This document shows, piece by piece, positions 4,676 through 57,671 of a stretch of 64,000 nucleotides of DNA. The number at the start of each line of letters is the position of its first letter. The first letter of the stretch is position 1. The notes beneath the pieces are model-generated. The model saw only the letters and a program-made list of their open reading frames with translations, ran no database searches and was not told the origin of the DNA. Made by a program: the position numbers and the translations under genes. The DNA is from a virus, in the IMG/VR virus record IMGVR_UViG_3300012078_000128, positions 1-64,000 of that record; one strand, 5' to 3'.

Positions 4676-6961
4676 TTGAAAAAAGACGAAGTAATCAAAG
4701 TTAACGCTAAGGTGAAGAAGAAATTGTATCCGAAAGGTAACGAACACAACAATTTTTTCATATATTCAATTTCACCTAATTCAAGCTCTCAAGCTATTGC
4801 TACGCTAAATGAAGAGTATAATAATTTCATTGTAAGTGGAAAGATGCAAGAACTAATTGAAGGAAATACATATGATATTGAAATTATTCCTAGCTGGTCT
4901 AAGAAACATGGAGACGGATATTCTGTTGTAAGTGTAACAAGTGAACGTCCTTCTTCCATAAAAGATCAACAAGAATACGTTCAAAGAGTAATTACAGATA
5001 AACAATACAAAGCTCTCATCAATAAATATCCTGAGCATCCATTGTTAGATATGTTTGAGAACGATGACATCGACTACTCAGATATTAAAGGTATTGGTAA
5101 AACAGCATACCAAAAAATAAAAGATAATTTATTTAATAATATGATAACTAATGATTTGGCGGCAAAGCTAAAAAACATGGGCGTTACTTTCACATCTGCG
5201 AAAGCATTGCTTAACCACTTTGGTAGCTCCGACTTAGTTATACAATTATCCAAAGATAATATTTATCGGTTCTGCGAAATAAAAGGGTTTGGATTTAAAA
5301 AGGTGGACGAGTACGCAATTTTAAGAGGGGATGACCCTATGAGTAAAGGGCGTATCCTAGCTGCTACAAAATATCTACTTGATCAAGATGAGCAAAAGGG
5401 ACACTCTTGGATGTTTAAACAAGAGTTACTTGGACAATTACATGAGTTACTCAAAATTGATGTATTAAAAATAGAAACAATTGTGAATAGCATTCAGAAT
5501 AAGGAATACAATTTATACGTTGATGATAAAAGGGTTGCTTCATATCCTAATTATAAATATGAATTAGCAATAAAAAAGAAGCTGATTCAAATGATTAACA
5601 CGCCATGTAAGACTAAAGGTATTGATTCTGATGAAGTAATTAAAACTTTAGAATTGAAGAACGGCTTCGAATATACTGATGAACAAAAGAATGCAATTCG
5701 ATTAGCTACTAATAACAACATACTGATATTAAATGGGCGAGCCGGTTCAGGAAAAACGTTTACAGTAAAAGGAATTCTTGAAGCTCTCAGAGACTATTCT
5801 TATCATTGCAGTGCATTATCAGGGAAAGCAGCCAAGGTCCTTTCATCTAACGGTCTAACAGCTTCCACTATTCATCGTATGCTTGGTATTAATAAAGAAA
5901 CTGGTGGATTTGCTCATAACGAAAAAATGCAACTACAGCATGATATTGTAATCTTAGACGAATCATCAATGGCTAATATCTATTTAATTTATTCAATTGT
6001 AATTGCACTCAAAGATGACGCTAAAATTATATTTGTAGGAGATAATGGTCAATTACCTTCAATTGGAGTGGGTTCAGTATTCGATGACTTGTTGTCTACT
6101 GGTGTATTACCTCAACAAGAACTCACCAAAATACACAGGCAAGCACAAAAGTCAGGTATATTGTCTGTTGCCAATAGAATACGTACAGGTAATCAAATCA
6201 ATAAACCTTATGAATTTGAGACACAAGTTTATGGAGAGCTTAAAGATATGGTTCTAATCCCTGTGCGAGATAAATCATACATACAGAGCGTGATTCTGTC
6301 TATCTGCGAAAAATACAAGCACAACGACCTATTTGAGTTTCAAGTGTTAACTACAATGAGAGAACGTGGAGATATATCAGTTAAAACACTGAATAATCTC
6401 CTACAACCAATATTTAACCCAAACACAAAAGAGGGGATTAAAAGTGGTTGGTACGAATATAAAGAAGGGGATAAGATCATTCAAAACGGGAACAACTATG
6501 AAGCTAAAATTGAAATTGACGAGTTTAATGAAATGTTGAATGACTCTTTTGAACAAGTAGAAGACGTGGAAGAAAAAGAATCTACAGTAGAAGTATTTAA
6601 CGGTACAATGGGAAAAATTATAAAGATTAACAAAGATAAAGAAAATCAAAACCTTAAAGTCTACATACAATTTGAAGATATTGATGAAGTTGTTGTCTAT
6701 GAGAGAACTGACTTGATGCAAATTGAATTAGCATATGCAATTACCACGCATAAAAGTCAGGGATCAACCTTGAAACACGTTCTATTTGCACTTGATTACG
6801 GCGCATATAAGTTACTTAGCAGAGAAATGGTATATACAGCAATCACAAGAGCGAGTAAAGGTTGCGTAGTAGTTGCGGAAAACAGGGCATTCCATCACGC
6901 TATAGAAAATACAACGGGTGATAACAGAAGAACGTTTTTGAAAGAGTTGTTAAATAGTTAA
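4676..6961 (+). CDS. RecD2-like SF1B DNA helicase
   Basis: 761 aa. Walker A LNGRAGSGKTF, Walker B VILDESSM, C-terminal AITTHKSQGST and TAITRA motifs of the RecD/TraA family. TTG start 8 nt after GGGG. Confidence 0.85.
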   Translation: MKKDEVIKVNAKVKKKLYPKGNEHNNFFIYSISPNSSSQAIATLNEEYNNFIVSGKMQELIEGNTYDIEIIPSWSKKHGDGYSVVSVTSERPSSIKDQQEYVQRVITDKQYKALINKYPEHPLLDMFENDDIDYSDIKGIGKTAYQKIKDNLFNNMITNDLAAKLKNMGVTFTSAKALLNHFGSSDLVIQLSKDNIYRFCEIKGFGFKKVDEYAILRGDDPMSKGRILAATKYLLDQDEQKGHSWMFKQELLGQLHELLKIDVLKIETIVNSIQNKEYNLYVDDKRVASYPNYKYELAIKKKLIQMINTPCKTKGIDSDEVIKTLELKNGFEYTDEQKNAIRLATNNNILILNGRAGSGKTFTVKGILEALRDYSYHCSALSGKAAKVLSSNGLTASTIHRMLGINKETGGFAHNEKMQLQHDIVILDESSMANIYLIYSIVIALKDDAKIIFVGDNGQLPSIGVGSVFDDLLSTGVLPQQELTKIHRQAQKSGILSVANRIRTGNQINKPYEFETQVYGELKDMVLIPVRDKSYIQSVILSICEKYKHNDLFEFQVLTTMRERGDISVKTLNNLLQPIFNPNTKEGIKSGWYEYKEGDKIIQNGNNYEAKIEIDEFNEMLNDSFEQVEDVEEKESTVEVFNGTMGKIIKINKDKENQNLKVYIQFEDIDEVVVYERTDLMQIELAYAITTHKSQGSTLKHVLFALDYGAYKLLSREMVYTAITRASKGCVVVAENRAFHHAIENTTGDNRRTFLKELLNS

Positions 6962-6989
6962 AAGATAATAAGTAATATATTTTAATTTA

Positions 6990-7027
6990 TTTACAGACAG
7001 GGGTTGAAGTTCTAATATAGAAGAGTA
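6990..7027 (+). promoter_or_regulatory. Promoter, class TTTACA-N17-TAATAT with a conserved downstream 20-mer
   Basis: TTTACA 6990-6995, TAATAT 7013-7018. The 20-mer AGTTCTAATATAGAAGAGTA (7008-7027) is identical to 26285-26304. Confidence 0.5.
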
Positions 7028-7260
7028 GGTTCAAAAACTTGTCAAAAACATACATAAATGAACCTACTTGCTTATTCTTCTGATTTAGCTAGTATCAAAA
7101 AGTATCAAATATCAGTAACTTTTGAACCTACCTAGTGTCAAAAGTTATCATTTTTTTATACTTTTTGAACTGGGGGTAGGTTCAAAAGTTATCACTTTTT
7201 TATACTTTTTGACACAGATATATTAGAGATACTATTATACTAGAGATACTATACTATTAT
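7026..7260. repeat. Cluster of dyad and tandem repeats (candidate operator or origin)
   Basis: GTAGGTTCAAAA and its complement occur at 7026, 7062, 7120 and 7177. Two tandem ~38-bp imperfect palindromes (G/T)TCAAAAGTTATCAyTTTTTTATACTTTTTGA lie at 7133-7170 and 7177-7215. AGTATCAAA x2 at 7091 and 7101. TAGAGATACTAT x2 at 7223-7252. Confidence 0.6.
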
Positions 7261-7318
7261 TAAAGATATTGGAATGGTCGCGCGGTAGCAGCTTACCCAA
7301 AAAGAAAGGAGAGAAGTG

Positions 7319-8143
7319 ATGAAAGGATTTCAGAATGACTGGAAAGGGCTATATATCAAAGGTTTTAAATCCTTTGCAGATCTAGTAGAAAAGACGAAAG
7401 TAAAAACAGTAAATAAAGAGGGAGTAAAAACAAAAAAGAAGGTTAATGTTCTTGCTCCATATATTGAATATAGAGAGTTCTATACATATTGCCTTCTTGT
7501 TTTAAATGAGAGACGCAATCAAACTATCTCAGTAAATGTTAGTTTACTATTAGAACAATCCCCTATCAAATTCAGCACAACAAAGAAAAAGAATCGAGAA
7601 TTGTTAGTGGATAGCTTAATGTGTCTAAAAAAAGAAAACATTATTAATACAGCTAATGATTATTCCAAAGAGTATTTGCTTGGTGATAACCTCTTAGAAC
7701 TAAGAGTAAATTATAAAAAACTTTCGGGCAATAATAATACAGAAGATGATTGGAAAGGCTATGAACGAATCCCTTTCGATGCCTTTTTCAAAGCAAAGAA
7801 AATGCAACATCTATATATTTACTATTTGGTTAAACGATATGATCTCGATGGATTCAAATGTTCCTATAGTTATTGGGCAACACTTCTTGATTCTTCTTTG
7901 AGCACGGCTAAAAGGTATTTAGCAGAAGCTGTTGATGAAAAAGTTATATTTGTAAATATCGGAAAATATGAGAATAAATCAAGAGTTAGGCAACAGATGA
8001 ATACATATAAAACTTATTGCTTTAAGGATAAAGAGAAGACAATTCAAACAAAGATTAAAGAGGTTAAAAATGGAATCGATAAAGCGACTATTTGTTCTGA
8101 TGTTAGAAAAGTAGAAAGTTTATATTGCAGTAATCCATTTTAA
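7319..8143 (+). CDS. Hypothetical wHTH-like protein (possible initiator or regulator for the upstream repeats)
   Basis: ORF track 7316..8143. The ATG at 7319 follows SD AAAGGAGAG. The C-terminal segment SLSTAKRYLAEAVDEKVIFV looks like an HTH recognition region. Function inferred from context only. Confidence 0.45.
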   Translation: MKGFQNDWKGLYIKGFKSFADLVEKTKVKTVNKEGVKTKKKVNVLAPYIEYREFYTYCLLVLNERRNQTISVNVSLLLEQSPIKFSTTKKKNRELLVDSLMCLKKENIINTANDYSKEYLLGDNLLELRVNYKKLSGNNNTEDDWKGYERIPFDAFFKAKKMQHLYIYYLVKRYDLDGFKCSYSYWATLLDSSLSTAKRYLAEAVDEKVIFVNIGKYENKSRVRQQMNTYKTYCFKDKEKTIQTKIKEVKNGIDKATICSDVRKVESLYCSNPF

Positions 8144-8315
8144 ACAACAAAATCAAAGGTTGTGAGTCTAATCAGTTGCCTACATATTGTAATTTAAAAA
8201 AGAATAATTATAATATGTTATTTTAAATTTAATTTAAGGCGTTTTAGCAATAACTAATACAATGACACCTGAAATTAATTTAAACGTCACTATCGCTCTC
8301 TAATTAGCTCACAGG

Positions 8316-8362
8316 GACATGCTATAGATTCCGAACTCGGGAAAACTTTGCATGTCTTTTTT
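8316..8362 (+). terminator. Rho-independent terminator
   Basis: GACATGC (8316-8322) pairs with GCATGTC (8350-8356), followed by TTTTTT. Confidence 0.5.
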
Positions 8363-8364
8363 AT

Positions 8365-8453
8365 TTTACATTGAATGTAAATTCAATGTACTTATAAAGT
8401 AACTTACGCATAGGCTTATTTTAGAACAACATCAAATTTACATTCAATGTACA
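8365..8453. promoter_or_regulatory. parC-like palindrome cluster upstream of the actin-like gene
   Basis: 13-bp palindromes TACATT-N-AATGTA at 8367-8379 and 8439-8451, plus a degenerate copy at 8378-8391. Confidence 0.55.
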
Positions 8454-8470
8454 TGAAAGGTGGAGTTAAT

Positions 8471-9319
8471 GTGGAGATATTGGGGATTGACGCAGGTAAT
8501 AGCAACATAAAAGTCGTTGGTAATAAAGGAGAATTAACATTCCCATCAGCTTTAGGTGAGCATAGAGAAAGAAAACTGGTGCAAAAGTTCAGCGAAAATG
8601 ACATTGAATACGAATTTAGAGGAACGAAAGGCTTTGCAGGCACGTTGGCTAAATATGAAAGTCAATTTTCGGTTTCTAAAATGGGGGCTACTAAGGCTCA
8701 CAAGGAGATGTTAATTAGAGTTTTATTAGGAATCACACGTTATTCAAATGGAAACAACTTTAAGATTATCGTAGGCCAACCAATTAGCTACCACATTGAA
8801 GAAGAAAAAAACAAAATGAAGTCAATTTTAGTTGGCTCTCATGAAATTGAAGTAAATGGACAACATAGATTGATAAATATTGAAGATGTAGAAGTTGCAG
8901 CAGAATCGGGATCAGCATTCTGGTCTAATCCAACTAATGGTCTGGTTCGGATACTGGATATAGGAAGTGGAACCGTTAATGTCGCTACACTTATTGAAGG
9001 ACGTTATATAGATAAAGACAGTTTTACAATAACTGATGGTTTAGAAACACTTGTTAGCAACGATTTAAACGCTTTTGCTCGTAAAATTGCAATAGATACG
9101 CTTAAACGATGGGATGAAAACGATTTGGTTTTTTTATGTGGTGGCGGGGCAGAAAAGATGGAGAAATATATAAGAGACCACTATTTTAATACGAAGGTAT
9201 TAAAACCACAACTACAGTACAAAGACAATGATGGGGTAATACAAGGAAAACAATTATCACCGATATATGGGAATGCAGTTGGTTACTTCAACATTGCAAA
9301 GAAACAATGGTCTCAATGA
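8471..9319 (+). CDS. ParM/AlfA-like actin-family partition ATPase (copy 1)
   Basis: Phosphate-1 GIDAGNSNIKV, phosphate-2 ILDIGSGTVNV, adenosine motif LCGGGAE. The GTG at 8471 follows SD AAAGGTGGAG; the ORF track starts at 8447. Confidence 0.8.
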   Translation: MEILGIDAGNSNIKVVGNKGELTFPSALGEHRERKLVQKFSENDIEYEFRGTKGFAGTLAKYESQFSVSKMGATKAHKEMLIRVLLGITRYSNGNNFKIIVGQPISYHIEEEKNKMKSILVGSHEIEVNGQHRLINIEDVEVAAESGSAFWSNPTNGLVRILDIGSGTVNVATLIEGRYIDKDSFTITDGLETLVSNDLNAFARKIAIDTLKRWDENDLVFLCGGGAEKMEKYIRDHYFNTKVLKPQLQYKDNDGVIQGKQLSPIYGNAVGYFNIAKKQWSQ

Positions 9320-9543
9320 GCAAATTTGTAAATAAGGGAGTAAGTTTTAATTTGTCGGATATTGACCAAAAGAAGATGTATGAACATGCTATGAAACGCA
9401 CCAATTTTTCTTCATATGTTAAGCGACTTATTCAACGAGATATGGAAGGTTATAGCTTGTCTAATACCAATGAGCATAAGCCTGTCCAAAGCAAATTAGA
9501 ACCACTCAATTTCAACTCAGATGATATGAAAAGGCTACTCTAG
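9316..9543 (+). CDS. Ribbon-helix-helix adaptor (ParR/AlfB-like)
   Basis: ATGA overlap with the actin gene stop. KGVSFNLSDIDQKKMYEHAMKRTNFSSYVKRLIQRD fits a CopG/Arc-type RHH. Confidence 0.6.
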   Translation: MSKFVNKGVSFNLSDIDQKKMYEHAMKRTNFSSYVKRLIQRDMEGYSLSNTNEHKPVQSKLEPLNFNSDDMKRLL

Positions 9544-9661
9544 AATTTCATCTTTCCCTAATTCCTAAATTCCGTCTTTCCCAAGGTTAGATGAAATATA
9601 TCAAGGGTTTTATACGTTAATTGAAGTCTCGATTATGGGTGAGTAGGGTGCTGTACTATGT

Positions 9662-9695
9662 AAAAACGGGGTAGTTTTCAAACTTTTCACCCCTG
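9662..9695 (-). terminator. Terminator for the minus-strand small gene
   Basis: GGGGT (9668-9672) pairs with ACCCC (9689-9693), with a T-run on the minus strand (9661-9666). Confidence 0.5.
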
Positions 9696-9706
9696 CAAAT
9701 TTAACC

Positions 9707-9853
9707 TTAATCAATGACACGATACTCATATAAAACTTCTAAAGCCTTCTCTAATTGTTCAACTGAAATTCCAGCTTCATGTGCAATAATGTGTTCTTGA
9801 TTTCTTAGTCTTTGCTCATATAGTTTAGTCTTGTCGGAAATGTCGAATAGCAT
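9707..9853 (-). CDS. Small hypothetical protein (48 aa), divergent from the XRE gene
   Basis: Own translation MLFDISDKTKLYEQRLRNQEHIIAHEAGISVEQLEKALEVLYEYRVID. SD AAGGGGAG upstream. Confidence 0.4.
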   Translation of the reverse strand: MLFDISDKTKLYEQRLRNQEHIIAHEAGISVEQLEKALEVLYEYRVID

Positions 9854-9983
9854 ATTATTTTCTCCCCTTGTCCAAAGTATCTTCAATTTGTTTTACAATA
9901 TTTTCAAAATCCTTGTTCATATTAATTCCGTCCTTTGTTGTATGGTATTGATGGTAGTTTGTACAGAAAGGTGAGTGTTATAC

Positions 9984-10391
9984 ATGGTAAAAATTATAGT
10001 TGAATTGGATGAGAAGAAGTATCAGCAAATTAGCGACACAGTAAATATGATTAATCAAAGAAACAAACTTCTTAAGAAGGAAGATCGCTACACAATTGAG
10101 CATTTCATTATTGGTTCTACAATGGATAAATTAGACCTTCTTGATAATATTGTATCTAATCAGCAGCACAATATTGATGAAAAAGTACAATTATTGAACA
10201 GTTTTAAACAAATAGCACAAGAAAAAGGTATAAAACAGGTCGATATATGTAAGAAGTTGGGCATAAGTAAGGGTTTGTTGAGCCAAATCTTCAGTAATAA
10301 GGTAAATATGAGTATGGAAACTTTTTTTAAAATATGGATTGCTCTGGAATGCCCGCCAATACAAAGTTGTTTTACCTTCAAGGAAAAATAA
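9984..10391 (+). CDS. XRE-family HTH regulator
   Basis: C-terminal KGIKQVDICKKLGISKGLLSQIFSNKVNMSMETFFKI is a typical HTH_XRE. The ATG at 9984 follows SD AAAGGTGAG. Confidence 0.7.
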   Translation: MVKIIVELDEKKYQQISDTVNMINQRNKLLKKEDRYTIEHFIIGSTMDKLDLLDNIVSNQQHNIDEKVQLLNSFKQIAQEKGIKQVDICKKLGISKGLLSQIFSNKVNMSMETFFKIWIALECPPIQSCFTFKEK

Positions 10392-10472
10392 AGGTACTAG
10401 GACAAACATCCATAAGCGTAAATTAAACTATATTAAACTATACAGAAAGAAAGTTAGAGGGGGTGAAATAAC

Positions 10473-10676
10473 ATGATTGGATCATTAATAATACTAGGTA
10501 AGGTTGCTACAGTATGCGGGGCGGGATTTGGTATTGCAACAGCATTAGAATGGTTTACAGATATAAAGGTTAAACCTGCTAAGAGTATTGTTCAACTGGG
10601 TTCAAACAACAAAGGGGGAAACGAAAATGACAATAAAATTGAACATCTCAAGCAGAGAGTTAGACAACAAGGTTAA
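10473..10676 (+). CDS. Small membrane protein (1 TM + polar tail)
   Basis: SD AGAGGGGGTG. N-terminal MIGSLIILGKVATVCGAGFGIATALEWF is hydrophobic. Confidence 0.55.
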   Translation: MIGSLIILGKVATVCGAGFGIATALEWFTDIKVKPAKSIVQLGSNNKGGNENDNKIEHLKQRVRQQG

Positions 10677-11145
10677 ACACATTCCATTTAACACGATTCA
10701 TCTTAATGAAAAAAAGAAGAAAACTGAAACTTTTATGAAAGTGAATGTAGGGGAGGTGAAAAACAACAGATTTATAAAAGCAGGCGCGTTAGTATCAGGT
10801 TTAACTATGTCAATGTTACCCAAAGTTGCACATGGAGAAGCTATAGAGACAACAGAAAATGTACAACAAACAATAACTCCAGCAGAAGTATTAGAGTATG
10901 GATTAACAATAGGGAAAATGGGGGTTGGCATAGCAGTAGGAATGTCGATAGTAATGCTCACATTCACAGGAATATTAATGATGCTGAAACAGAAACAAAA
11001 AAGCAAAGAATGGACTTCAGACATTATAAAAGGACTTGTTCACTGTTTAGTTGCTATTCCAGTCGTATTCGCGATTTATTACATTTCAACAAGCCTTTTC
11101 GGAAGCATAGATTTCACAAATCCAACATTCTTAAATACACCCTAA
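10627..11145 (+). CDS. Membrane protein with long leader, signal-like segment and two TM helices (VirB2/TrbC-like topology only)
   Basis: The ATG at 10627 lies 7 nt after SD AAAGGGGGA. FIKAGALVSGLTMSMLPKVAHG-EA is signal-like, followed by two hydrophobic helices separated by KQKQKSKEW. Confidence 0.5.
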   Translation: MTIKLNISSRELDNKVKHIPFNTIHLNEKKKKTETFMKVNVGEVKNNRFIKAGALVSGLTMSMLPKVAHGEAIETTENVQQTITPAEVLEYGLTIGKMGVGIAVGMSIVMLTFTGILMMLKQKQKSKEWTSDIIKGLVHCLVAIPVVFAIYYISTSLFGSIDFTNPTFLNTP

Positions 11146-12260
11146 TCCCCTTCACAGCCATATCTTCATTTACCTTATCCTCTATAACTAATAACGCCTA
11201 TGCAGCATCAGAAAGAAAGTTTTTACAAAAGAATATTGATACTTATAAATCTGACAATAGCTTTATAAATGAGATGAAAAATATTTCAGTTAGCTTTAGA
11301 GAGATTGGAGACAAGTTAAATGGTCTAACAGAATGGTTCAAGCATTTACCAAAGACTATTGAGCAAGGAAGCATGGATCTGATATCTAGTATCTATTCTC
11401 TAGTTGGAAATTTAATACTTAAGACACCTTTGTGGATTTTCGACAATCAATGGTTCAACAATAATACTTATTTATTTAGCATGGTATCTGTAGGGATTGT
11501 TACAGTATTAACTACAATTGAAGGTATTAAGAGGATGCTAAATAAGAAACATGTAAATTTAAAAACAATAATGAAACGTTGGTTTTGGGTAGCTGGACTG
11601 AATACAATTATTCCATTTTTGTTCATTAATACTTTCAGATTATTAAATTGGTTATCAGACAAAATTATAAACTTGAATGGAAATATAATTAAGAACACTG
11701 CTCAGAATGCAACAGCACCTTTCGACTTATTTGTAATGGTTATATTTAGCTTAGTGTTAGTCGGAATTACAATTCCTACATTAATGACAAACAGCCGCAG
11801 ATTCTTCGATCTCATTACATTAGGTATCATAAGTCCGTTGGCGATGACAGCATACATTTTCGATCCATATAAACATTTGTTTACTCAATGGTGGTCAAGT
11901 GTGAAACACCTATCTATGGTTCAGGTTATATATGCTTTCTACTTAATGATTATAGGCTTATTAATTTATGGTATCCCTACACCTGATGACACAATGGGAG
12001 TAGTTTTTAAATTCCTTCTAGTTATTGGAGGCTTTATGAGGCTGATGAATCCTCCTCAGTTTATGAATAAACATCTAGACGGTAGTGGAAGTATTACTGA
12101 TGAATTTGGTAGAGCCAAAAAAACTAAAAAGAGTATCATTGGTAAATTTAGGGAGAGCGTGAAGGTTGTTAAAAATCCAATTAACGCTGTGAAATTCTTA
12201 TCTAAAGGAAAGCAACATAAAGTAGTAACAGGTAATACAAGGATGGACAGATATCATTAA
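11010..12260 (+). CDS. Polytopic membrane protein (VirB6/TrbL-like topology only); start unresolved
   Basis: Signal-peptide-like RKHRFHKSNILKYTLIPFTAISSFTLSSITNNAYA-AS, then at least 5 hydrophobic helices. The only canonical in-frame start (11010) has no SD and overlaps the upstream gene by 136 nt. Confidence 0.5.
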   Translation: MDFRHYKRTCSLFSCYSSRIRDLLHFNKPFRKHRFHKSNILKYTLIPFTAISSFTLSSITNNAYAASERKFLQKNIDTYKSDNSFINEMKNISVSFREIGDKLNGLTEWFKHLPKTIEQGSMDLISSIYSLVGNLILKTPLWIFDNQWFNNNTYLFSMVSVGIVTVLTTIEGIKRMLNKKHVNLKTIMKRWFWVAGLNTIIPFLFINTFRLLNWLSDKIINLNGNIIKNTAQNATAPFDLFVMVIFSLVLVGITIPTLMTNSRRFFDLITLGIISPLAMTAYIFDPYKHLFTQWWSSVKHLSMVQVIYAFYLMIIGLLIYGIPTPDDTMGVVFKFLLVIGGFMRLMNPPQFMNKHLDGSGSITDEFGRAKKTKKSIIGKFRESVKVVKNPINAVKFLSKGKQHKVVTGNTRMDRYH

Positions 12261-12272
12261 GGGGTGAAGAAT

Positions 12273-14450
12273 ATGCTTAACCTTACAATGGAGCACGAAG
12301 AAATAAGTATGGAAGAACGTATGTCAAAAGATTTTTTCGGCGTGCAATATGTGGTTACTAAAGATGGATTAAAAAGTTCAAATTATACCCCATCCCTTAT
12401 AGACAGGGGATGGTTAAGAATGGGATCAGAAGACAACGGATTCAAGTTTACTATGGCTGAAGCTAAATTAGTTAGACCGTATTTCATGCCAATTAGATGC
12501 GATGCTAAAGGATTCTTCATTGAGTACTTGGAAGAGTTGTCTAATGTGCTATATGAGGAAGATGAATACATTACATTTGCGTTCTCATTTCATAAAAAAA
12601 CAAAGTGGAGAGAACAAGCTATAGAGATGTATCAAAGCTATCTTAATGGTGTTGATTATCCGATGGGTAATAAGTATTTCAGACACCTACAGGAAAGTAT
12701 CTTAAATGTGAAGAACAACATACTTAGTAACACAAGTGAACGGGAGTACTCTCAAGATATTGAAGATAAGATTCTCGACAATGGATATAGTATGAATTTT
12801 ATCATCCAGATATATTCAGATAGATGTGATGAACTGATTGATTTGGTGCAATCTATATTTGATCAATATGCTTATTATAATGGGATTAAGATAGGAAATT
12901 GTCCAAAAAGAAACATCCACTACTTTGAGGATAAAAACCAAATCATGAGCAAACAAGAAATATTGTCTTTACTAAGTACTGATTCTGCAATTGCAAGTAC
13001 AGAAGTGAGTGAGAAGAAATCTTTGAGTATAGTTAGTAGTGGAAGCAAGCTTAACGTTGAAATATTGCCCGAAATTGAAGGGAACGTCCCAATTAAGATT
13101 GATGATACATTGGAATGTAAACTGGCTGAAGCGATGAAACGTGTAGGACTGATTAAACAAGCAAGATTATATAACAGTAGTATAAATAGTGGATCAAGAT
13201 TAGTTGTTGTTCAATGTGATGTACCTACTGGTAAGAATTATAGCGATGTAGAAAAGAAGAAGAAAGATATTAGAGTGGCTTTAGGAGTGAAATCATTAGG
13301 TATAGAACAAGGAGAAGCTGCCAACACAATTAAGTTTAGCATTCCACACAATGATCATAGAATTATCTCACTGAGAGAAATGGTGCTAATGGAAGAATGG
13401 GAGAAATTTAGAGAGAAAAATGCATTGAGTTTTGTTTGTGGCATGGATGAGTTAGATAGTCCCGTATTTCTAAGTCTAAGAAAGCTAGCGCATTTACTTG
13501 TAGCAGGAACAACTGGAAGTGGGAAAAGTGTATTCCTAAATCAGATGATATATACGCTGTTAAGTAACCATAGACCAGATGAATTACAGATGTTCTTGAT
13601 TGATCCTAAGAAGATTGAGTTTATGGATTATGAAGGTTTCCCACAAGTACAGAAGGTTGTAACTGACATGAATGAGGCAGGTAATATATGTACTTCGTTA
13701 GTTCTAGAGATGGAAGAAAGATACGATAAGATGAGTAAATTAAGTTGTAGAGAGATTGATGATTATAATACCAAGAGTAAAGATAAGATGCCTTATATTG
13801 TATTTGTAGTCGATGAATTTGCTGATTTAATGACTGTTGCGAGTAAAAGTATAGAAGAATCAATAATGAGACTGGGGCAGAAGGCAAGAGCCTGTGGTAT
13901 ACATTTAATTATTGCTACACAGAGACCAAGTGCTGATATATTAAGTGGAACAATTAAGGCTAATATACAAAATGCTATTAGCTTTAACTTGGGAAGCAAT
14001 AGAAATTATAGAACTGTATTTGATGAGAGTATTCCATTTGATTCACTTCTAGGCATGGGAGATGGTGTTGCGAGAATTGAAAGGTGGAAGAAAGATTTTC
14101 AACGTTTTCAAAGTCCTACTATTCATACTAATAATGATGTTGTATTGGATGCGATAGAAAAGCTAAAGGAATATTACAGTGGATTGGGTAGTGTTGAAAT
14201 GATTGATACACTAGATATAGTTGAAGAGGTTAGTTTAATTGATGAATTGAAGATGATTATTGCTGATACAGGAGAAACTAGAGTAGGCGAGTTAAGGAAG
14301 TTAATGGGGATTAAATCAGAGACAATCGGTGAGTTAATGAGTGAACTGACTAAAGAGGGATGGTTAATGAAGCATAAGAGTAGATCAAAAGGTTATGAGT
14401 TGATTATAAAACAAGATGAATTGGATAAGTGGAAAAATAAGCGTATATAA
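12273..14450 (+). CDS. FtsK/SpoIIIE-family DNA translocase-like ATPase, soluble, with C-terminal winged helix
   Basis: Walker A VAGTTGSGKSVF, Walker B VVDEFADL, ATQRPS motif, and a gamma-like wHTH (ETRVGELRKLMGIKSETIGELMSELTKEGWL). No N-terminal TM segments. The ATG at 12273 follows SD AAGGGG. Confidence 0.85.
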   Translation: MLNLTMEHEEISMEERMSKDFFGVQYVVTKDGLKSSNYTPSLIDRGWLRMGSEDNGFKFTMAEAKLVRPYFMPIRCDAKGFFIEYLEELSNVLYEEDEYITFAFSFHKKTKWREQAIEMYQSYLNGVDYPMGNKYFRHLQESILNVKNNILSNTSEREYSQDIEDKILDNGYSMNFIIQIYSDRCDELIDLVQSIFDQYAYYNGIKIGNCPKRNIHYFEDKNQIMSKQEILSLLSTDSAIASTEVSEKKSLSIVSSGSKLNVEILPEIEGNVPIKIDDTLECKLAEAMKRVGLIKQARLYNSSINSGSRLVVVQCDVPTGKNYSDVEKKKKDIRVALGVKSLGIEQGEAANTIKFSIPHNDHRIISLREMVLMEEWEKFREKNALSFVCGMDELDSPVFLSLRKLAHLLVAGTTGSGKSVFLNQMIYTLLSNHRPDELQMFLIDPKKIEFMDYEGFPQVQKVVTDMNEAGNICTSLVLEMEERYDKMSKLSCREIDDYNTKSKDKMPYIVFVVDEFADLMTVASKSIEESIMRLGQKARACGIHLIIATQRPSADILSGTIKANIQNAISFNLGSNRNYRTVFDESIPFDSLLGMGDGVARIERWKKDFQRFQSPTIHTNNDVVLDAIEKLKEYYSGLGSVEMIDTLDIVEEVSLIDELKMIIADTGETRVGELRKLMGIKSETIGELMSELTKEGWLMKHKSRSKGYELIIKQDELDKWKNKRI

Positions 14451-16086
14451 TATATAGAGTGTGGCTATAATGGAGATACAGCATTGGTATTATTCAAAAG
14501 AATCCCCCCCTCCTATATAGTTTATATAACTGATTAACATGTTGGATATCTGTGAAAGCAGACAATCCTATGTGTTATTTTTTTATCCATAAAACATCGA
14601 GAACGATTTTAAGAGGTTTCATGAGAAAATAAAAGAAATTGGATTATATATAGATGAAATATGGGTTAGAGTGACTTAAATTGGTTGCTTTGACCCATAT
14701 TTTTGTTGGGTTATCGTAAAAGTAGCATAACATTGAGATTTAAGAATGAAAAACAATAAAAGATAGAGAACATGATGAAAATATTTAAAGATGTGGAGTG
14801 TTAAAACGCAGGAGAAATAGTGGTTTGTATCGCAAGCACACGATACGGAAAACGATACAAATAAAGTGAAAAATGGTCTACTGCAAGATAGTCAGCTAGG
14901 CAGTATATCAACCTATAATATGGAAGTTGTTGATGTTTTTATGCCCCCCATAATGACCGAATAATATATGTTATACAGTCATTTATAAATATCTATCTAT
15001 ACAGGGCACACCTTTGCCAACTAACACAGATTTGTAAGAGTGGGGGGAATACGATGCAAGTGTTCGCTTGCATATAATAATCGCATGACAAGAAGGACTC
15101 TAGCTGAAAGTATTACATATCATTCATATCACCAACATCATCATACCTATCTAACTCACATCCTCATACCACCACATCAACATAATACAATATACGAATC
15201 TGTATATCGTATATCCATAATCTACATAACTCCTTTTCTCTATCATCATGTCTGCTATCCTTTGTATATCTAACATCACCTACACAAACACTTCACATAG
15301 TCTATATACTCAAATCTTCTCATATAACATACATAAGGAACTTTTCTTTCTCTCTATACAATCATACTAGGCAACCTGATATGAAGTCTCTAAGCGTCTC
15401 TAAGCAATCCATTTTTCAAATATCAAATATCAAAACTTCATAACAAAAGAATATATAATATATAAATCCAATAATATTCTCTAACACTAGACTGTGTTGT
15501 AAAAAAGTATACTCAAATATAAACAATGTGAAGGCTAACATAATATCATGACTAACCAATATGTAAACCAACGATCCGAATCAACTCAGAACTCAATTAA
15601 ACAAGCACTAACTATATCTTTAATTAATAAAGGAAACATCATCTGAACTTAGTGAAGCAGTACAGAACGCTACTGAATCCAAACTATCCGACATTACAGA
15701 CATAATAGACATCATGCCATATATCGAATATCCATAAAATAAATAATCAAAAATTAAAAATAGATAATGGTATATTCTTTTTTCATTTTCAAGTATTCCT
15801 TTAATTATCTAATGTAAATCTATATAGATCTGCATCATCGTCATAACTACACGTCACACACTAATCAACCACACAATATATACTAGACTAACACACACTA
15901 ATCAAAGCATGTGTCACACTATGCACATGTCATCAATGCATATGCTATACACACATCACATACAAACATATAAGCTATGCTATATACCATGCTAGGTCAT
16001 CTTACTATCATACATAAGCCACACTAATACTTTATACTAACAAACAAAATAACCAAAAGAAAATATATAATATATGAATATAATAC

Positions 16087-16115
16087 TTGTAATATGTTAC
16101 CAATCATGTTATACT
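16087..16115 (+). promoter_or_regulatory. Candidate promoter for the toxin-like peptide
   Basis: TTGTAA (16087-16092), 17-nt spacer, TATACT (16110-16115). Confidence 0.35.
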
Positions 16116-16252
16116 TAGTATAGAAAGTAAGGGGGTTAAGTACATAAGAAAGAAGCACTAGCAGTAATACATATGTTTAAAATAAGTAACAACAATGTAA
16201 CTAATACATAACTAGTGTGTACCGTATCACCTGAAAAGGAGGTGACAAAGTA

Positions 16253-16423
16253 ATGGGAACTGAAATGATTATGCAAATCCTTGTTCTTTCAACTGCTGTA
16301 ATCAATTTGATTGTTGCGATTATTACCTTAATCACAGCACTACAAAGTAAGCAGAAAAAGAAAAAACCTTCTTCTAAATCGTCACGCACGACGAAAAAGA
16401 AAAAGGCTAATCAAAAGAAATAA
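16253..16423 (+). CDS. Type-I-toxin-like small membrane peptide (56 aa: TM helix + Lys-rich tail)
   Basis: Own translation MGTEMIMQILVLSTAVINLIVAIITLITALQSKQKKKKPSSKSSRTTKKKKANQKK. Strong SD AAAAGGAGGTGA 8 nt upstream; terminator immediately downstream. Confidence 0.6.
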   Translation: MGTEMIMQILVLSTAVINLIVAIITLITALQSKQKKKKPSSKSSRTTKKKKANQKK

Positions 16424-16428
16424 ACGGT

Positions 16429-16450
16429 GAAAGGGAAGCAATTCCCTTTC
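16429..16450. terminator. Hairpin terminator
   Basis: GAAAGGGAA (16429-16437) pairs with TTCCCTTTC (16442-16450). Confidence 0.6.
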
Positions 16451-16513
16451 ATAATGTTATACTATGTATCATATCAGTTTAATTCAGAAAAAACAAGAGA
16501 GTAGGTGTTATGT

Positions 16514-16597
16514 ATGATGACAGCCACAATTATCATTTCAGTATTAGGTTTGATTATTTCTTTAGTAGCTTTAGGAATAACCTTGAAGAATAAGTAA
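16514..16597 (+). CDS. Small hydrophobic peptide (27 aa)
   Basis: Own translation MMTATIIISVLGLIISLVALGITLKNK, after AGAGAGTAGGTG. Confidence 0.4.
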   Translation: MMTATIIISVLGLIISLVALGITLKNK

Positions 16598-57193: not shown

Positions 57194-57613
57194 GGGTATG
57201 TTAGGGTACAGTAGAACATAAGTTTACCTTATATTCTTACTATTTCTCCGAAGGGATGTTAGGGTACAGTAGTAATGTTATTTATATTTGTAATAATCTC
57301 ATTTCAAAGGGATGTTAAGGTACAGTATTAGAAATTTTAACGTTTTAATAAAAATATTTTTGCTTCCGTTAAAAACCCTTGATATACAAGGGTTTTTTGT
57401 TTTGTAGCTAAACAAATCAACTTTTTTCTCATGTAAAAGGTACGTTAGGGTACAGTAGTGTTAATTTTAAACCTTTATTGTTGAATTTTATAAAGGGATG
57501 TTAAGGTACAGTAGAACATAAGATCCCCATTTTACAAAAGCAATTCCTAAAGGGATGTTAGGGTACAGCATTTTTTAGCAAATTTGAGGCAAAGGGACGC
57601 TAAGGTACAGTAT
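57194..57613 (+). repeat. Iteron array: seven direct 21-22 bp repeats, consensus AAGGGATGTTARGGTACAGTA
   Basis: Copies at about 57194-57222, 57251-57272, 57307-57328, 57436-57458, 57493-57522, 57549-57569 and 57592-57613, all in the same orientation. Copies 1 and 5 share the extension GAACATAAG. Confidence 0.85.
57371..57397. terminator. Bidirectional hairpin in the middle of the iteron array
   Basis: AAAAACCCTTG-ATATA-CAAGGGTTTTT. Confidence 0.6.
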
Positions 57614-57671
57614 TCACAACTCTATCAAGGTGATGTATATTGGTGAAAATTGATAGAAGGAGGTGTTTGCT

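What the first reader, a model, noticed from the sequence alone, without database searches (positions are those of the whole stretch)
14451..16252. 1.8 kb ORF-free region with extreme C>G strand skew inside an otherwise gap-free phage genome
Seen:
- There is no credible ORF on either strand between the FtsK-like gene stop (14450) and the toxin-like peptide (16253).
- From about 15110 to 16060 the plus strand is nearly G-free. By hand count, 15121-15180 has 0 G in 60 nt, and 15121-15420 has 17 G in 300 nt.
- C is abundant in the same stretch (for example 20 C in 15841-15900).
- Embedded motifs include a perfect tandem GTCTCTAAGC x2 (15385-15404) and CACACTAAT x3 (about 15857, 15895 and 16022).
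- There are also two ~25-bp related A/T boxes (AAAAGAATATATAATATAT at about 15447 and 16057) and three DnaA-box-like TATCCATA sites (14584, 15212, 15729).

Candidate explanations:
- A plus-strand transcript would be a long, unstructured, C-rich/G-poor RNA, which is ideal Rho (rut) loading substrate.
- A minus-strand transcript would be G-rich and R-loop prone, which suggests origin priming.
- It could also be a long ncRNA or a protein-binding platform.

None of the annotated features explains this region.
Basis: seen in the sequence. Interest (0 to 1): 0.75.

Follow-up and report, generated by a model that had tools for sequence, protein, structure and literature searches.

The report
Skewed flanks of phage packaging junction
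The G-poor, gene-free stretch is one of two mirror-image, strand-lopsided arms flanking the short DNA block where SPbeta-type phages cut their genome for packaging; this layout is conserved across the phage family but has not been described.

Summary
Window 15110-16060 has 73 G against 212 C, the lowest GC skew in the 64 kb. It is not a decayed gene, a known RNA or a DnaA-box origin.

The window is a distant SPbeta-like phage. The region matches, in layout and in short anchor motifs, the SPbeta yonP-yonT interval, where the literature places the pac site or "genome opening point".

In 44 distinct SPbeta-type junctions:
- A core block of fixed length (249-253 bp in most) lies between a G-rich, C-poor left arm and a G-free right arm.
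- In 36 of 40 distinct loci the right arm runs to the promoter of the type I toxin yonT.
- Two GenBank records (BUCT083, BUCT082) are broken exactly at the two block edges.

The window has the same three parts: left arm 14585-14894, predicted block 14895-15087, right arm 15088-16060. Its right arm is three times longer and holds a decaying small-gene cassette. A toxin gene with a weak SR6-like antisense match follows.

Right-arm alleles cannot be aligned between close relatives yet all lack G, so composition, not sequence, is conserved.

How the arms work is not settled. I favour a role at the DNA ends or at single-strand level. Rho loading and promoter-upstream activation remain live rivals.

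The parts
14442..14455 (.). Near copy (CGTATATAATATAT) of the palindromic A/T box, at the outer boundary of the left arm and overlapping the FtsK-like stop codon.
   Evidence: In position it is analogous to the SPBRE operator at the outer end of the SPbeta left arm. This analogy is an inference.
14536..14590 (+). Intrinsic terminator of the FtsK-like operon: a hairpin at 14536-14576 followed by a U-run.
   Evidence: -14.2 kcal/mol, z = -3.1, 0 of 200 shuffles fold as well. L002 has a terminator at the equivalent place.
14585..14894 (.). Left arm. The plus strand is G>C (67/30) and purine-rich, and it carries ATCG/ACGAT words, including the conserved pair ACGATAC-N5-ACGATACA at about 14838.
   Evidence: The alignment shows the ACGATA..ACGAT anchor shared with L002, SPbeta, phi3T, Goe11 and SPbetaL5.
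14895..15087 (.). Predicted core block (193 bp), the counterpart of the 251-bp SPbeta block whose two edges are record ends or physical ends. It contains the left-edge motif GCTAGG (14895-14900), a C6 run (14944-14949), the palindrome TGACCGAATAATATATGTTATACAGTCA (14954-14981) and the right-edge motif AATCGCATG (15079-15087).
   Evidence: block 193 bp here, 195 bp in L002. The palindrome folds with z = -2.5. That these edges are cut sites in this phage is inferred by homology and was not measured.
15088..15440 (.). Right arm, part 1 (R1). The plus strand is almost G-free (G 6.5%, C 26%), with an 85-nt G-free run from 15111.
   Evidence: The sequence is not conserved with L002 but the composition is.
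15445..15473 (.). A/T box copy 1 (core AATATATAATATAT, 15450-15463), ahead of the small-ORF cassette.
15548..15738 (+). Small ORF inserted within the arm. It is frameshifted by one extra A at AAAGGAAACA, and both halves align at the amino-acid level with the intact 59-aa ORF of L002 (16182-16361). Its terminator is strong in L002 and decayed here.
   Evidence: No PHROG family matches it.
15800..16056 (.). Right arm, part 2 (R2). The plus strand is G-poor (G20/C63) and contains CACACTAAT x3.
   Evidence: Positional counterpart of the G-free tract just upstream of PyonT in SPbeta-type phages.
16057..16115 (+). A/T box copy 2 (16057-16085), followed by a sigma-A-like promoter: TTGTAA-17-TATACT with an upstream TG (16087-16115).
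   Evidence: Weak blastn similarity to the SPbeta yonT promoter/SPBRE region (E = 0.03).
16253..16423 (+). Type I toxin-like peptide (56 aa: a transmembrane helix followed by a Lys-rich tail), the first gene after the arm.
   Evidence: The layout is as for yonT in SPbeta. There is no detectable sequence similarity to YonT.
16355..16455 (-). Possible SR6-like antisense antitoxin RNA, ending at the terminator hairpin at 16428-16451.
   Evidence: Rfam SR6_antitoxin, 27.7 bits against a gathering score of 55, E = 0.05, full model length. Terminator-like site. This is a weak hit, supported mainly by its position and strand.

Best explanation
WHAT IT IS

The interval is the packaging/terminal junction of a distant SPbeta-like phage. 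It has three parts:
- A core block predicted at 14895-15087 (about 193 bp). It corresponds to the block whose two edges are the DNA ends (terminase cut sites) in SPbeta-type phages.
- A left arm (14585-14894) whose plus strand is G-rich and C-poor.
- A right arm (15088-16060) whose plus strand is almost G-free.

On both sides, therefore, the strand that runs 5'->3' towards the block is G-rich and C-poor, and in Spbetavirus also purine-rich. The flagged kilobase is the right, early-gene-side arm. It is about three times longer than in Spbetavirus and is interrupted by a decaying small-gene cassette. It ends at an A/T box plus promoter that drives a type I toxin-like gene.

HOW IT MOST LIKELY WORKS (inferred, not shown)

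- The left arm carries sequence-specific words (ACGAT) and is probably the terminase or small-terminase recognition side.
- The right arm is selected for composition only. I favour a role at the level of DNA ends or single strands next to the cut sites. This could be in end processing, in duplication or annealing of the terminal block, or in circularisation.
- A duplex with no G on one strand has three built-in properties. It cannot fold through G-C pairs when single-stranded. It cannot contain a consensus -35 box, a Shine-Dalgarno sequence or a start codon in the early-gene direction. It cannot contain a palindromic G/C restriction site.
- It would therefore also serve as an inert spacer between the DNA end and a dangerous toxin promoter.
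For: The phage is SPbeta-like:
- The YorL-type polymerase is 53% identical to those of SPbeta and phi3T.
- YopP/Q/R-like genes, a DnaB-like helicase, a RecJ-like nuclease and ribonucleotide reductase lie in SPbeta order.

The literature places the pac site here:
- The SPbeta pac site or 'genome opening point' lies between yonP and yonR, followed by a sharp block of about 250 bp of extra read coverage that is the same size in all isolates (bioRxiv 10.1101/2021.11.22.469490; PMC8270828).

The block edges coincide with record ends:
- In SPbeta the stretch from GT^GCTATGGG to AATCGAAG^ is exactly 251 bp.
- The BUCT083 record is broken at the first site.
- The linear BUCT082 record is broken at the second.

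The arms are a family-wide feature:
- In 44 distinct YonO-linked junctions from IMG/VR the block is 249-253 bp. One subgroup has 280-282 bp and one locus has 391 bp.
- The 150 nt before the left edge have a median of G43/C7. The 150 nt after the right edge have a median of G4/C44.
- In the 129 kb of SPbeta scanned, these arms are the strongest positive skew window and the only 150-nt window at or below -0.6.

The window and its closest relative fit the same plan:
- The window and L002 (FtsK-like protein 57% identical) share the anchors ACGATA..ACGAT, GCTAnGG, ATGT..C5-7, a palindrome and AATCG.ATGACA with the SPbeta-type phages.
- Their predicted blocks are nearly equal, 193 and 195 bp.
- L002 shows the arms in extreme form: skew up to +0.97, then down to -0.79.

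Composition rather than sequence is conserved:
- Right-arm alleles cannot be aligned between phages whose flanks are nearly identical, yet all of them are G-free.

The arms do not depend on flanking promoters:
- In the window and in L002 the left arm has no leftward gene or promoter beyond it, yet the arm persists. This argues for a link to the block rather than to a promoter.

An independent parallel exists:
- In T7, a G-poor tract (skew -0.6) lies directly between the left terminal repeat and the first early promoters.
Against: - No reads or end-mapping exist for this phage. The block edges in the window are inferred from short motifs, and overall DNA identity to SPbeta is too low for blastn.
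- That the BUCT082 and BUCT083 record breaks are physical ends is an inference. It rests on their agreement with the reported coverage block of about 250 bp.
- In the window the left arm is only moderately skewed (+0.38).
- In Spbetavirus the arms are also the upstream regions of the divergent promoters PyonP and PyonT, so a promoter-linked role cannot be separated there.
- In SPbeta itself, the strongest G-free piece stays with PyonT after the yonR-yonS insertion.
- No known end-processing mechanism is documented to require such a composition.
Confidence: 0.6

Rival explanations
1. Rho-loading (rut) tract or insulator. Rightward transcripts crossing the right arm, and leftward transcripts crossing the left arm, would be C-rich, G-poor, unstructured and untranslatable. 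Rho would terminate them before they reach the toxin gene or the late RNA-polymerase operon.
For: - The predicted plus-sense RNA is among the least structured in the window over 20 consecutive 150-nt windows.
- C/G is about 3-10 over hundreds of nt.
- A G-free RNA has no AUG, GUG or UUG start codon and no Shine-Dalgarno sequence. This follows directly from the sequence.
- The tract precedes a toxin gene that needs tight control.
- In the window it lies downstream of the FtsK-like operon.
Against: - There is no evidence of transcription into the arm.
- In most Spbetavirus loci nothing obvious reads rightwards into it.
- This idea gives no reason for the composition switch to sit at the block edges.
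- The arms are 250-950 nt, far longer than a rut site.
- An intrinsic terminator already closes the upstream operon.
Confidence: 0.17
2. Promoter-upstream activating or operator-flanking DNA. The G-free tract would boost or tune the adjacent early or toxin promoter, or support looping or spreading of the YopR/MrpR-type repressor bound at flanking operators.
For: - PyonT-lacZ fusions with 500 bp of upstream DNA are 4-5 times more active than fusions with 100 bp (PMC5848175, section 2.4).
- MrpR binds SPBRE operators at PyonP and PyonT, which bracket the junction (PMC10516654).
- In the window, A/T boxes sit at the outer ends of the arms.
- In 36 of 40 distinct loci the tract runs exactly up to the yonT-type promoter.
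Against: - Double-stranded DNA binding or bending does not by itself explain one-strand G-exclusion.
- There is no helical periodicity.
- Other SPBRE promoters in SPbeta have no such tract.
- The left arm persists in the window and in L002 without a promoter.
- The lacZ difference could equally come from an extra upstream promoter.
Confidence: 0.12
3. Mutational footprint only. The strands next to the DNA ends would be repeatedly single-stranded and lose C by deamination, with no selected function.
For: - The skew is mirror-symmetric about the DNA ends.
- The right-arm sequence is hypervariable.
Against: - The C-poor strand is A-rich, not T-rich: left arms have A 0.38 against T 0.26, and the complement of the right arms has A 0.36 against T 0.32. 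This is the opposite of what C->T deamination predicts.
- The block itself, which would be single-stranded most often, is not skewed.
- Alleles differ by length and are unalignable, not merely changed by transitions.
- Skew values down to -1.0 over 150-170 nt are hard to reach by mutational bias alone.
Confidence: 0.06
4. Replication origin primed by an R-loop or by DnaA, or a structured long non-coding RNA.
For: - Transcripts converging on the block would be G-rich (and purine-rich in Spbetavirus) and so prone to R-loops.
- The SPbeta origin is unknown.
Against: - DnaA-like boxes are not enriched.
- There are no iterons here.
- The region is far from the replication genes at 24-42 kb.
- An iteron array lies elsewhere, at 57195-57614.
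- No Rfam family matches.
- The right-arm sequence is not conserved, which argues against a structured RNA.
Confidence: 0.04
5. Decayed gene (pseudogene remnant).
For: A small ORF inside the arm is frameshifted.
Against: - That ORF covers only about 190 nt.
- The arms have no protein-like reading frames.
- Skew of -0.66 to -1.0 exceeds that of any coding region in the window or in SPbeta.
- The same ORF-free arms occur in dozens of relatives.
Confidence: 0.01

Closest known systems
SPbeta pac site / 'genome opening point' region between yonP and yonR (Fink & Zahler 1982; Kohm et al., bioRxiv 10.1101/2021.11.22.469490; review PMC8270828)
   Same: - It lies between the late side and the early genes of an SPbeta-type genome.
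- It shares the anchor motifs ACGATA..ACGAT, GCTAnGG, ATGT..C-run, a palindrome and AATCG.A.GACA.
- A fixed-length core block is flanked by a G-rich arm and a G-free arm.
- The next gene is a type I toxin with an antisense RNA.
   Different: - The block is predicted to be 193 bp rather than 251 bp.
- A 10-kb RecD2-Alp-FtsK module lies between the RNA-polymerase gene and the junction.
- The right arm is about 950 nt rather than 250-366 nt, and it holds a small-gene cassette.
- The SPBRE operator is absent and a different A/T box sits in its place.
- The skewed arms themselves are not mentioned in the SPbeta papers I read.
T7 left-end non-coding region between the terminal repeat and the early promoters (the short-repeat region of the concatemer junction, named from my own knowledge)
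   Same: A non-coding tract with a G-poor plus strand (skew -0.6) starts right after the 160-bp terminal repeat and precedes the first early promoters.
   Different: - The T7 tract is about 180 bp and is built of CCTAAAG-type repeats.
- It has no mirrored G-rich arm on the other side of the repeat.
- It belongs to an unrelated phage family.
SPP1 pac (pacL-pacC-pacR), named from my own knowledge and from review PMC8270828
   Same: A tripartite packaging signal in which a cleavage core lies between two flanking recognition regions.
   Different: - The SPbeta review reports no sequence similarity.
- The SPP1 flanks are about 100-200 bp of specific boxes, not compositionally skewed arms.
- I did not test this here.
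Rho utilisation (rut) sites
   Same: C-rich, G-poor RNA that is unstructured and untranslated in the sense direction.
   Different: - The arm is 3-10 times longer than typical rut sites.
- Transcription and Rho dependence are not shown.
- The composition switch coincides with DNA-end positions.
yonT/SR6 type I toxin-antitoxin locus of SPbeta (PMC5848175)
   Same: - A small membrane-type toxin ORF follows directly after the G-poor tract.
- A weak SR6-like antisense match overlaps the 3' end of the toxin ORF.
- A second small hydrophobic ORF lies downstream.
   Different: - The toxin has no detectable similarity to YonT.
- The SR6 match is below Rfam's gathering score.

Membership tests
SPbeta-type packaging/terminal junction | The host genome is SPbeta-like (core replication and lysogeny genes in SPbeta order). 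| tested here: met
   The RNA-polymerase gene, however, belongs to a different two-barrel lineage.
SPbeta-type packaging/terminal junction | Conserved left-edge and core motifs: ACGATA..ACGAT, (GAAGT)^GCTAnGG, ATGT..C5-7, a palindrome. | tested here: met
   an alignment of the window, L002, SPbeta, phi3T, Goe11 and SPbetaL5. The GAAGT part is not conserved in the window.
SPbeta-type packaging/terminal junction | A right-edge motif (AATCGAAG^) at a fixed distance from the left edge. | tested here: inconclusive
   The window has AATCGCATG and L002 has AATCGAATG, 193 and 195 bp from GCTAGG. The match is short.
SPbeta-type packaging/terminal junction | A G-rich, C-poor arm abuts the left edge and a G-free arm abuts the right edge. 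| tested here: met
   Window: G33/C16 in the 150 nt before the block and G9/C40 in the 150 nt after it. Family medians: G43/C7 and G4/C44.
SPbeta-type packaging/terminal junction | The physical DNA ends (terminase cuts) lie at the block edges. | not testable with these tools
   This needs virion read or end mapping. For Spbetavirus it is supported by the BUCT082 and BUCT083 record breaks and by the published coverage block of about 250 bp.
SPbeta-type packaging/terminal junction | The right arm ends at an operator plus promoter of a type I toxin gene. | tested here: met
   Layout. Toxin homology is not detectable.
Rho-dependent terminator (rut) | C>G, unstructured, untranslated RNA of at least about 80 nt. 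| tested here: met
Rho-dependent terminator (rut) | The tract is transcribed in the C-rich sense, and termination depends on Rho. | not testable with these tools
   No expression data are available here.
Replication origin (DnaA boxes or iterons plus an unwinding element) | A cluster of DnaA boxes or iterons above chance. | tested here: not met
   15 matches against 23.5 expected; no tandem or periodic repeats.
Known RNA families (Rfam 15) | A covariance-model match at the gathering score. | tested here: not met
   The only weak hit is SR6_antitoxin, which lies outside the arm.
Type II (actin-like) partition centromere | An array of iterons next to the Alp gene. | tested here: not met
   No array lies in the arm. 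Palindromic repeats lie directly upstream of the Alp gene at 8360-8458 instead.

The most novel reading that the evidence does not exclude
SPbeta-type phages carry a previously undescribed kind of end element: telomere-like, strand-asymmetric arms next to the terminal block. The strand running 5'->3' towards the block would be kept C-free (and its partner G-free) by selection on composition alone. This property would be needed for packaging initiation or for processing of the DNA ends into circles or concatemers. If so, the signature predicts genome termini from sequence alone.
Probability: 0.3. Interest if true: 0.8.

Novelty: new variant of a known kind. Interest (0 to 1): 0.6.

Why it matters
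- It locates the probable packaging junction of an uncharacterised 117-kb SPbeta-like phage from sequence alone.
- It shows that the oddity is not a one-off. A fixed-length block flanked by mirror-image G-/C-depleted arms recurs in at least 44 distinct SPbeta-type junctions and in two distant relatives. I found no mention of this in the SPbeta papers I read.
- The packaging and replication mechanisms of SPbeta are stated to be unresolved (PMC8270828). The block edges and arms give precise, mutable targets in a genetically tractable model, B. subtilis 168.
- The signature could be used to predict termini in SPbeta-like prophages.
- Conservation of composition without conservation of sequence is an unusual constraint that calls for a single-strand-level explanation.

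Tried and rejected
Searches that found nothing useful:
- blastn and megablast of the region and of the first 25 kb against phages and plasmids gave no match.
- Exact-pattern scans for the centre box found nothing in viral, genome or metagenome collections.
- A protein search with the FtsK-like gene in viral contigs found no relatives.
- A profile scan with FtsK-like proteins in genome contigs returned only chromosomal FtsK. The patterns chosen were the generic motor motifs, so that scan was wasted.
- YopQ-based loci in IMG/VR did not reach the junction.
- The 80-aa right-flank protein only found the source contig itself.

Ideas rejected:
- Tandem repeats or iterons: none.
- A giant hairpin between the arms: the inverted matches are short and not collinear.
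- Helical periodicity or curvature: no robust peak.
- Motif arrays: a few words are enriched (CATCACAT, CACACTAA), but weakly and not shared evenly between loci.
- The SPBRE operator of SPbeta is not enriched in the window or in L002.
- A DnaA-box cluster is not enriched.
- A centromere for the Alp system: the repeats are at the Alp gene itself.
- A generic property of MrpR-regulated promoters or of type I toxins: no other SPbeta site has such a tract.
- A deamination footprint: the A/T asymmetry has the wrong sign.
- Pseudogene: rejected on the grounds given under the rival explanations.
Full report
OBSERVATION

The compositional claim is correct.
- Window 15110-16060 has A385, C212, G73, T281. 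The hand counts for 15121-15180 (0 G) and 15121-15420 (17 G) are exact.
- The stretch is the skew minimum of the whole 64 kb at both the 300-nt and the 950-nt scale.
- P = 7e-24 against the window's own G/(G+C).
- It contains the longest G-free run in the window, 85 nt from 15111.
- All other strongly negative stretches are minus-strand genes.
- The listed small motifs are present.
- DnaA-like boxes are not enriched: 15 found against 23.5 expected.
- 14451-16252 is the largest ORF-poor stretch in the window.

- The left third (14585-14894) is skewed the other way, G67/C30.
- A small ORF at 15548-15738 is conserved at the amino-acid level with a 59-aa ORF in a related contig, but is broken by one extra A.

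WHAT KIND OF GENOME THIS IS

- The window has no nucleotide match in the phage or plasmid collections.
- Its source is a 117-kb Logan/ENA contig.
- Gene content is SPbeta-like. YopP/Q/R-type integrase-fold proteins, a DnaB-like helicase, a RecJ-like nuclease, a YorL-type polymerase (53% identical to SPbeta and phi3T) and ribonucleotide reductase lie in SPbeta order.
- Upstream of the region lies a RecD2-Alp-HTH-FtsK module that is otherwise seen in Bastillevirinae.
- A two-barrel RNA-polymerase-like gene sits on the minus strand.

THE CLOSEST RELATIVE HAS THE SAME FEATURE IN EXTREME FORM

- Contig L002 (Logan) carries an FtsK-like protein that is 57% identical.
- It has an ORF-free 2.5 kb in which about 800 nt are almost C-free (skew up to +0.97), followed after about 200 nt by about 900 nt that are almost G-free (skew down to -0.79).
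- Only short blocks are conserved between the window and L002:
  - a 90-nt centre: CAGCTAGG..., a C-run and a palindrome;
  - an ACGATA..ACGAT pair in the G-rich arm;
  - AATCG.ATGACAAGA;
  - the small ORF.
- The arms themselves share composition but not sequence.
- They are not tandem repeats, not a long hairpin and not helically phased.

LINK TO SPBETA

SPbeta has the same layout in miniature.
- Between yonP and yonR a G-rich stretch (skew up to +0.77) is followed by GCTATGGG, a C5 run and a palindrome. A G-poor stretch lies beyond.
- A G-free tract (skew -0.69) lies directly upstream of the SPBRE operator and the promoter of the type I toxin yonT.
- In the 129 kb of SPbeta scanned, these are the strongest positive window and the only 150-nt window at or below -0.6.

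What the literature says:
- It places the pac site or 'genome opening point' between yonP and yonR.
- It reports a sharp coverage block of about 250 bp of identical size in all isolates.
- Packaging proceeds towards yonP.
- MrpR (YopR) binds the SPBRE at PyonP and PyonT. I located those sites as AATATGTATATAA.

THE ARMS ABUT THE DNA ENDS

- A blastn of the SPbeta intergenic region showed two GenBank records broken inside it.
- BUCT083 is broken at GT^GCTATGGG.
- The linear BUCT082 record is broken at AATCGAAG^ACATA. That is the first base of the G-free tract.
- The two points are exactly 251 bp apart in both SPbeta and BUCT082, which matches the published block.
- phi3T, Goe11, SPbetaL5 and BUCT083 all show: G-rich arm, GCTAnGGG, about 250 bp, G-free arm (skew down to -1.0), yonT-type toxin.

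Using SPbeta YonO as a handle, I fetched 79 IMG/VR loci.
- 44 distinct junctions carry both edge motifs. The block is 249-253 bp in most, 280-282 bp in a subgroup and 391 bp in one.
- Median G43/C7 in the 150 nt before the left edge, and G4/C44 in the 150 nt after the right edge.
- The pattern persists in several loci whose YonO is only about 50% identical, with the same GAAGT^GCTA and ATGTAAAC-C-run motifs. One of these has an 800-nt G-poor arm.
- In 36 of 40 distinct loci the G-poor spacer (248-366 nt) runs from the right edge to the -10 box of the yonT-type promoter. In the other four, yonR-yonS is inserted.
- Right-arm alleles cannot be aligned between phages whose flanks are nearly identical, yet all are G-free.

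MAPPING ONTO THE WINDOW

A six-way alignment anchors the window and L002 to the SPbeta-type left edge and core. By homology the parts are:
- Terminator of the FtsK-like operon: 14536-14590.
- Left arm: 14585-14894.
- Block: 14895-15087, 193 bp. In L002 it is 195 bp, and this near-equality mirrors the tight length conservation in Spbetavirus.
- Right arm R1: 15088-15440.
- A/T box, then the frameshifted small ORF. Its terminator has decayed here but is strong in L002.
- Right arm R2: 15800-16056.
- A/T box and a sigma-A-like promoter.
- A 56-aa toxin-like ORF.
- A weak full-length match to Rfam SR6_antitoxin on the opposite strand over the toxin's 3' end (27.7 bits, E = 0.05).

The toxin has no detectable similarity to YonT, so that assignment rests on layout.

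MECHANISM

Shown:
- The arms are a conserved, composition-level feature.
- They are positioned to the nucleotide against the two edges of the terminal block in Spbetavirus.
- They are mirror-symmetric. The strand running 5'->3' towards the block is G-rich and C-poor on both sides. In Spbetavirus it is also purine-rich: left arms A .38, G .29, C .06; right arms on the plus strand C .28, T .36, G .04.

Inferred:
- One-strand exclusion of a base, together with free sequence turnover, points to a constraint on a single strand (DNA or RNA) rather than to a double-strand binding site.
- The arms track the block edges even where no promoter lies beyond the left arm, as in the window and L002. I therefore favour a role tied to the DNA ends.
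- The left arm, which is sequence-conserved and carries ACGAT words, would be the terminase recognition side.
- The right arm would be a structure-free and signal-free flank of the cut or terminal block.
- A G-free strand also cannot carry a consensus -35 box (TTGACA needs both G and C), a Shine-Dalgarno sequence, any AUG/GUG/UUG start codon, or a palindromic G/C restriction site. That suits a spacer placed before a toxin promoter.
- T7 offers a parallel: a tract with skew -0.6 lies directly between its left terminal repeat and its early promoters. T7 has no mirrored arm.

RIVALS

- Rho loading fits the RNA properties. It does not explain the coincidence with the edges, and it lacks a demonstrated transcript.
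- A promoter-upstream role is supported by the 4-5-fold higher PyonT activity with 500 bp than with 100 bp of upstream DNA. It does not explain the strand asymmetry, and no other SPBRE promoter has such a tract.
- A pure deamination footprint predicts T-enrichment of the C-poor strand. The strand is A-rich.
- The origin, structured-RNA and pseudogene readings are poorly supported.

VERDICT

- The region is best read as an expanded variant of the SPbeta-family packaging junction with strand-skewed arms.
- I put its identity as such at about 0.8. A DNA-end or single-strand mechanism for the G-poor arm is the leading guess but unproven, at about 0.35-0.4 on its own.
- The stated 0.6 for the best explanation is an overall score that weights the identity claim more heavily than the mechanism.
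- The arms appear to be undescribed in the SPbeta papers I could read.

Noticed in passing
window 57195-57614: Six to seven copies of a 25-nt repeat (AAAGGGATGTTAAGGTACAGTAGT) spaced about 56 nt apart, in the gap between two genes. It looks like an iteron array and is a better candidate for an origin or a regulator-binding array than the flagged region.
   Followed up: no
window 8360-8458 and 7092-7215: Palindromic and direct repeats lie immediately upstream of the actin-like (Alp) gene at 8447. They are probably its centromere or operator. A second set of 36-41-nt repeats lies upstream of the gene at 7316.
   Followed up: no
window 4676-14450: A 10-kb RecD2-Alp-HTH-FtsK module, otherwise typical of Bastillevirinae such as SIOphi, sits inside an SPbeta-like genome. 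Together with the iteron array, this raises the possibility of a plasmid-like (phage-plasmid) lifestyle.
   Followed up: partly
window 15548-15738; L002 16182-16361: The small acidic ORF inside the G-poor arm is itself G-poor. It is intact in L002 (with a ribosome-binding site and a strong terminator) but frameshifted in the window, where its terminator has also decayed. It could be a gene born from the stop-poor G-free tract, or a cassette that is now decaying.
   Followed up: partly
window 14504-14521; L002 14640-14660: A conserved C-run box (CCCCCCCCTCCTATATAG in the window, CCCCTCCCTATATAT in L002) lies in the 3' UTR just before the operon terminator. It resembles an anti-Shine-Dalgarno, C-rich seed and might belong to a 3'-UTR-derived small RNA.
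   Followed up: no
window 16505-16597 and 16428-16451: A second small hydrophobic ORF (30 aa) and a terminator-like hairpin (called on the minus strand) follow the toxin-like gene. This echoes the yonT-yoyJ/SR6 arrangement.
   Followed up: partly
L006 4154-5834 (SPbeta record NC_001884, 59153-60833): A 1.7-kb ORF-free stretch between yonK and yonN has unusually high G+C (33-47.5%, mostly 38-47%) and no skew. [quoted passage not shown]
   Followed up: no
L002 1-5001: In the related contig, both the RecD2-like and the UvrD-like helicase genes carry intein and LAGLIDADG domains.
   Followed up: no
L006 11139-11220 (SPbeta): A sigma-A-like promoter (TTGTTG-17-TATCAT, identified by eye) lies between the yonS terminator and the G-free tract. 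It could transcribe the tract and might explain the 4-5-fold higher activity of the 500-bp PyonT fusion.
   Followed up: no
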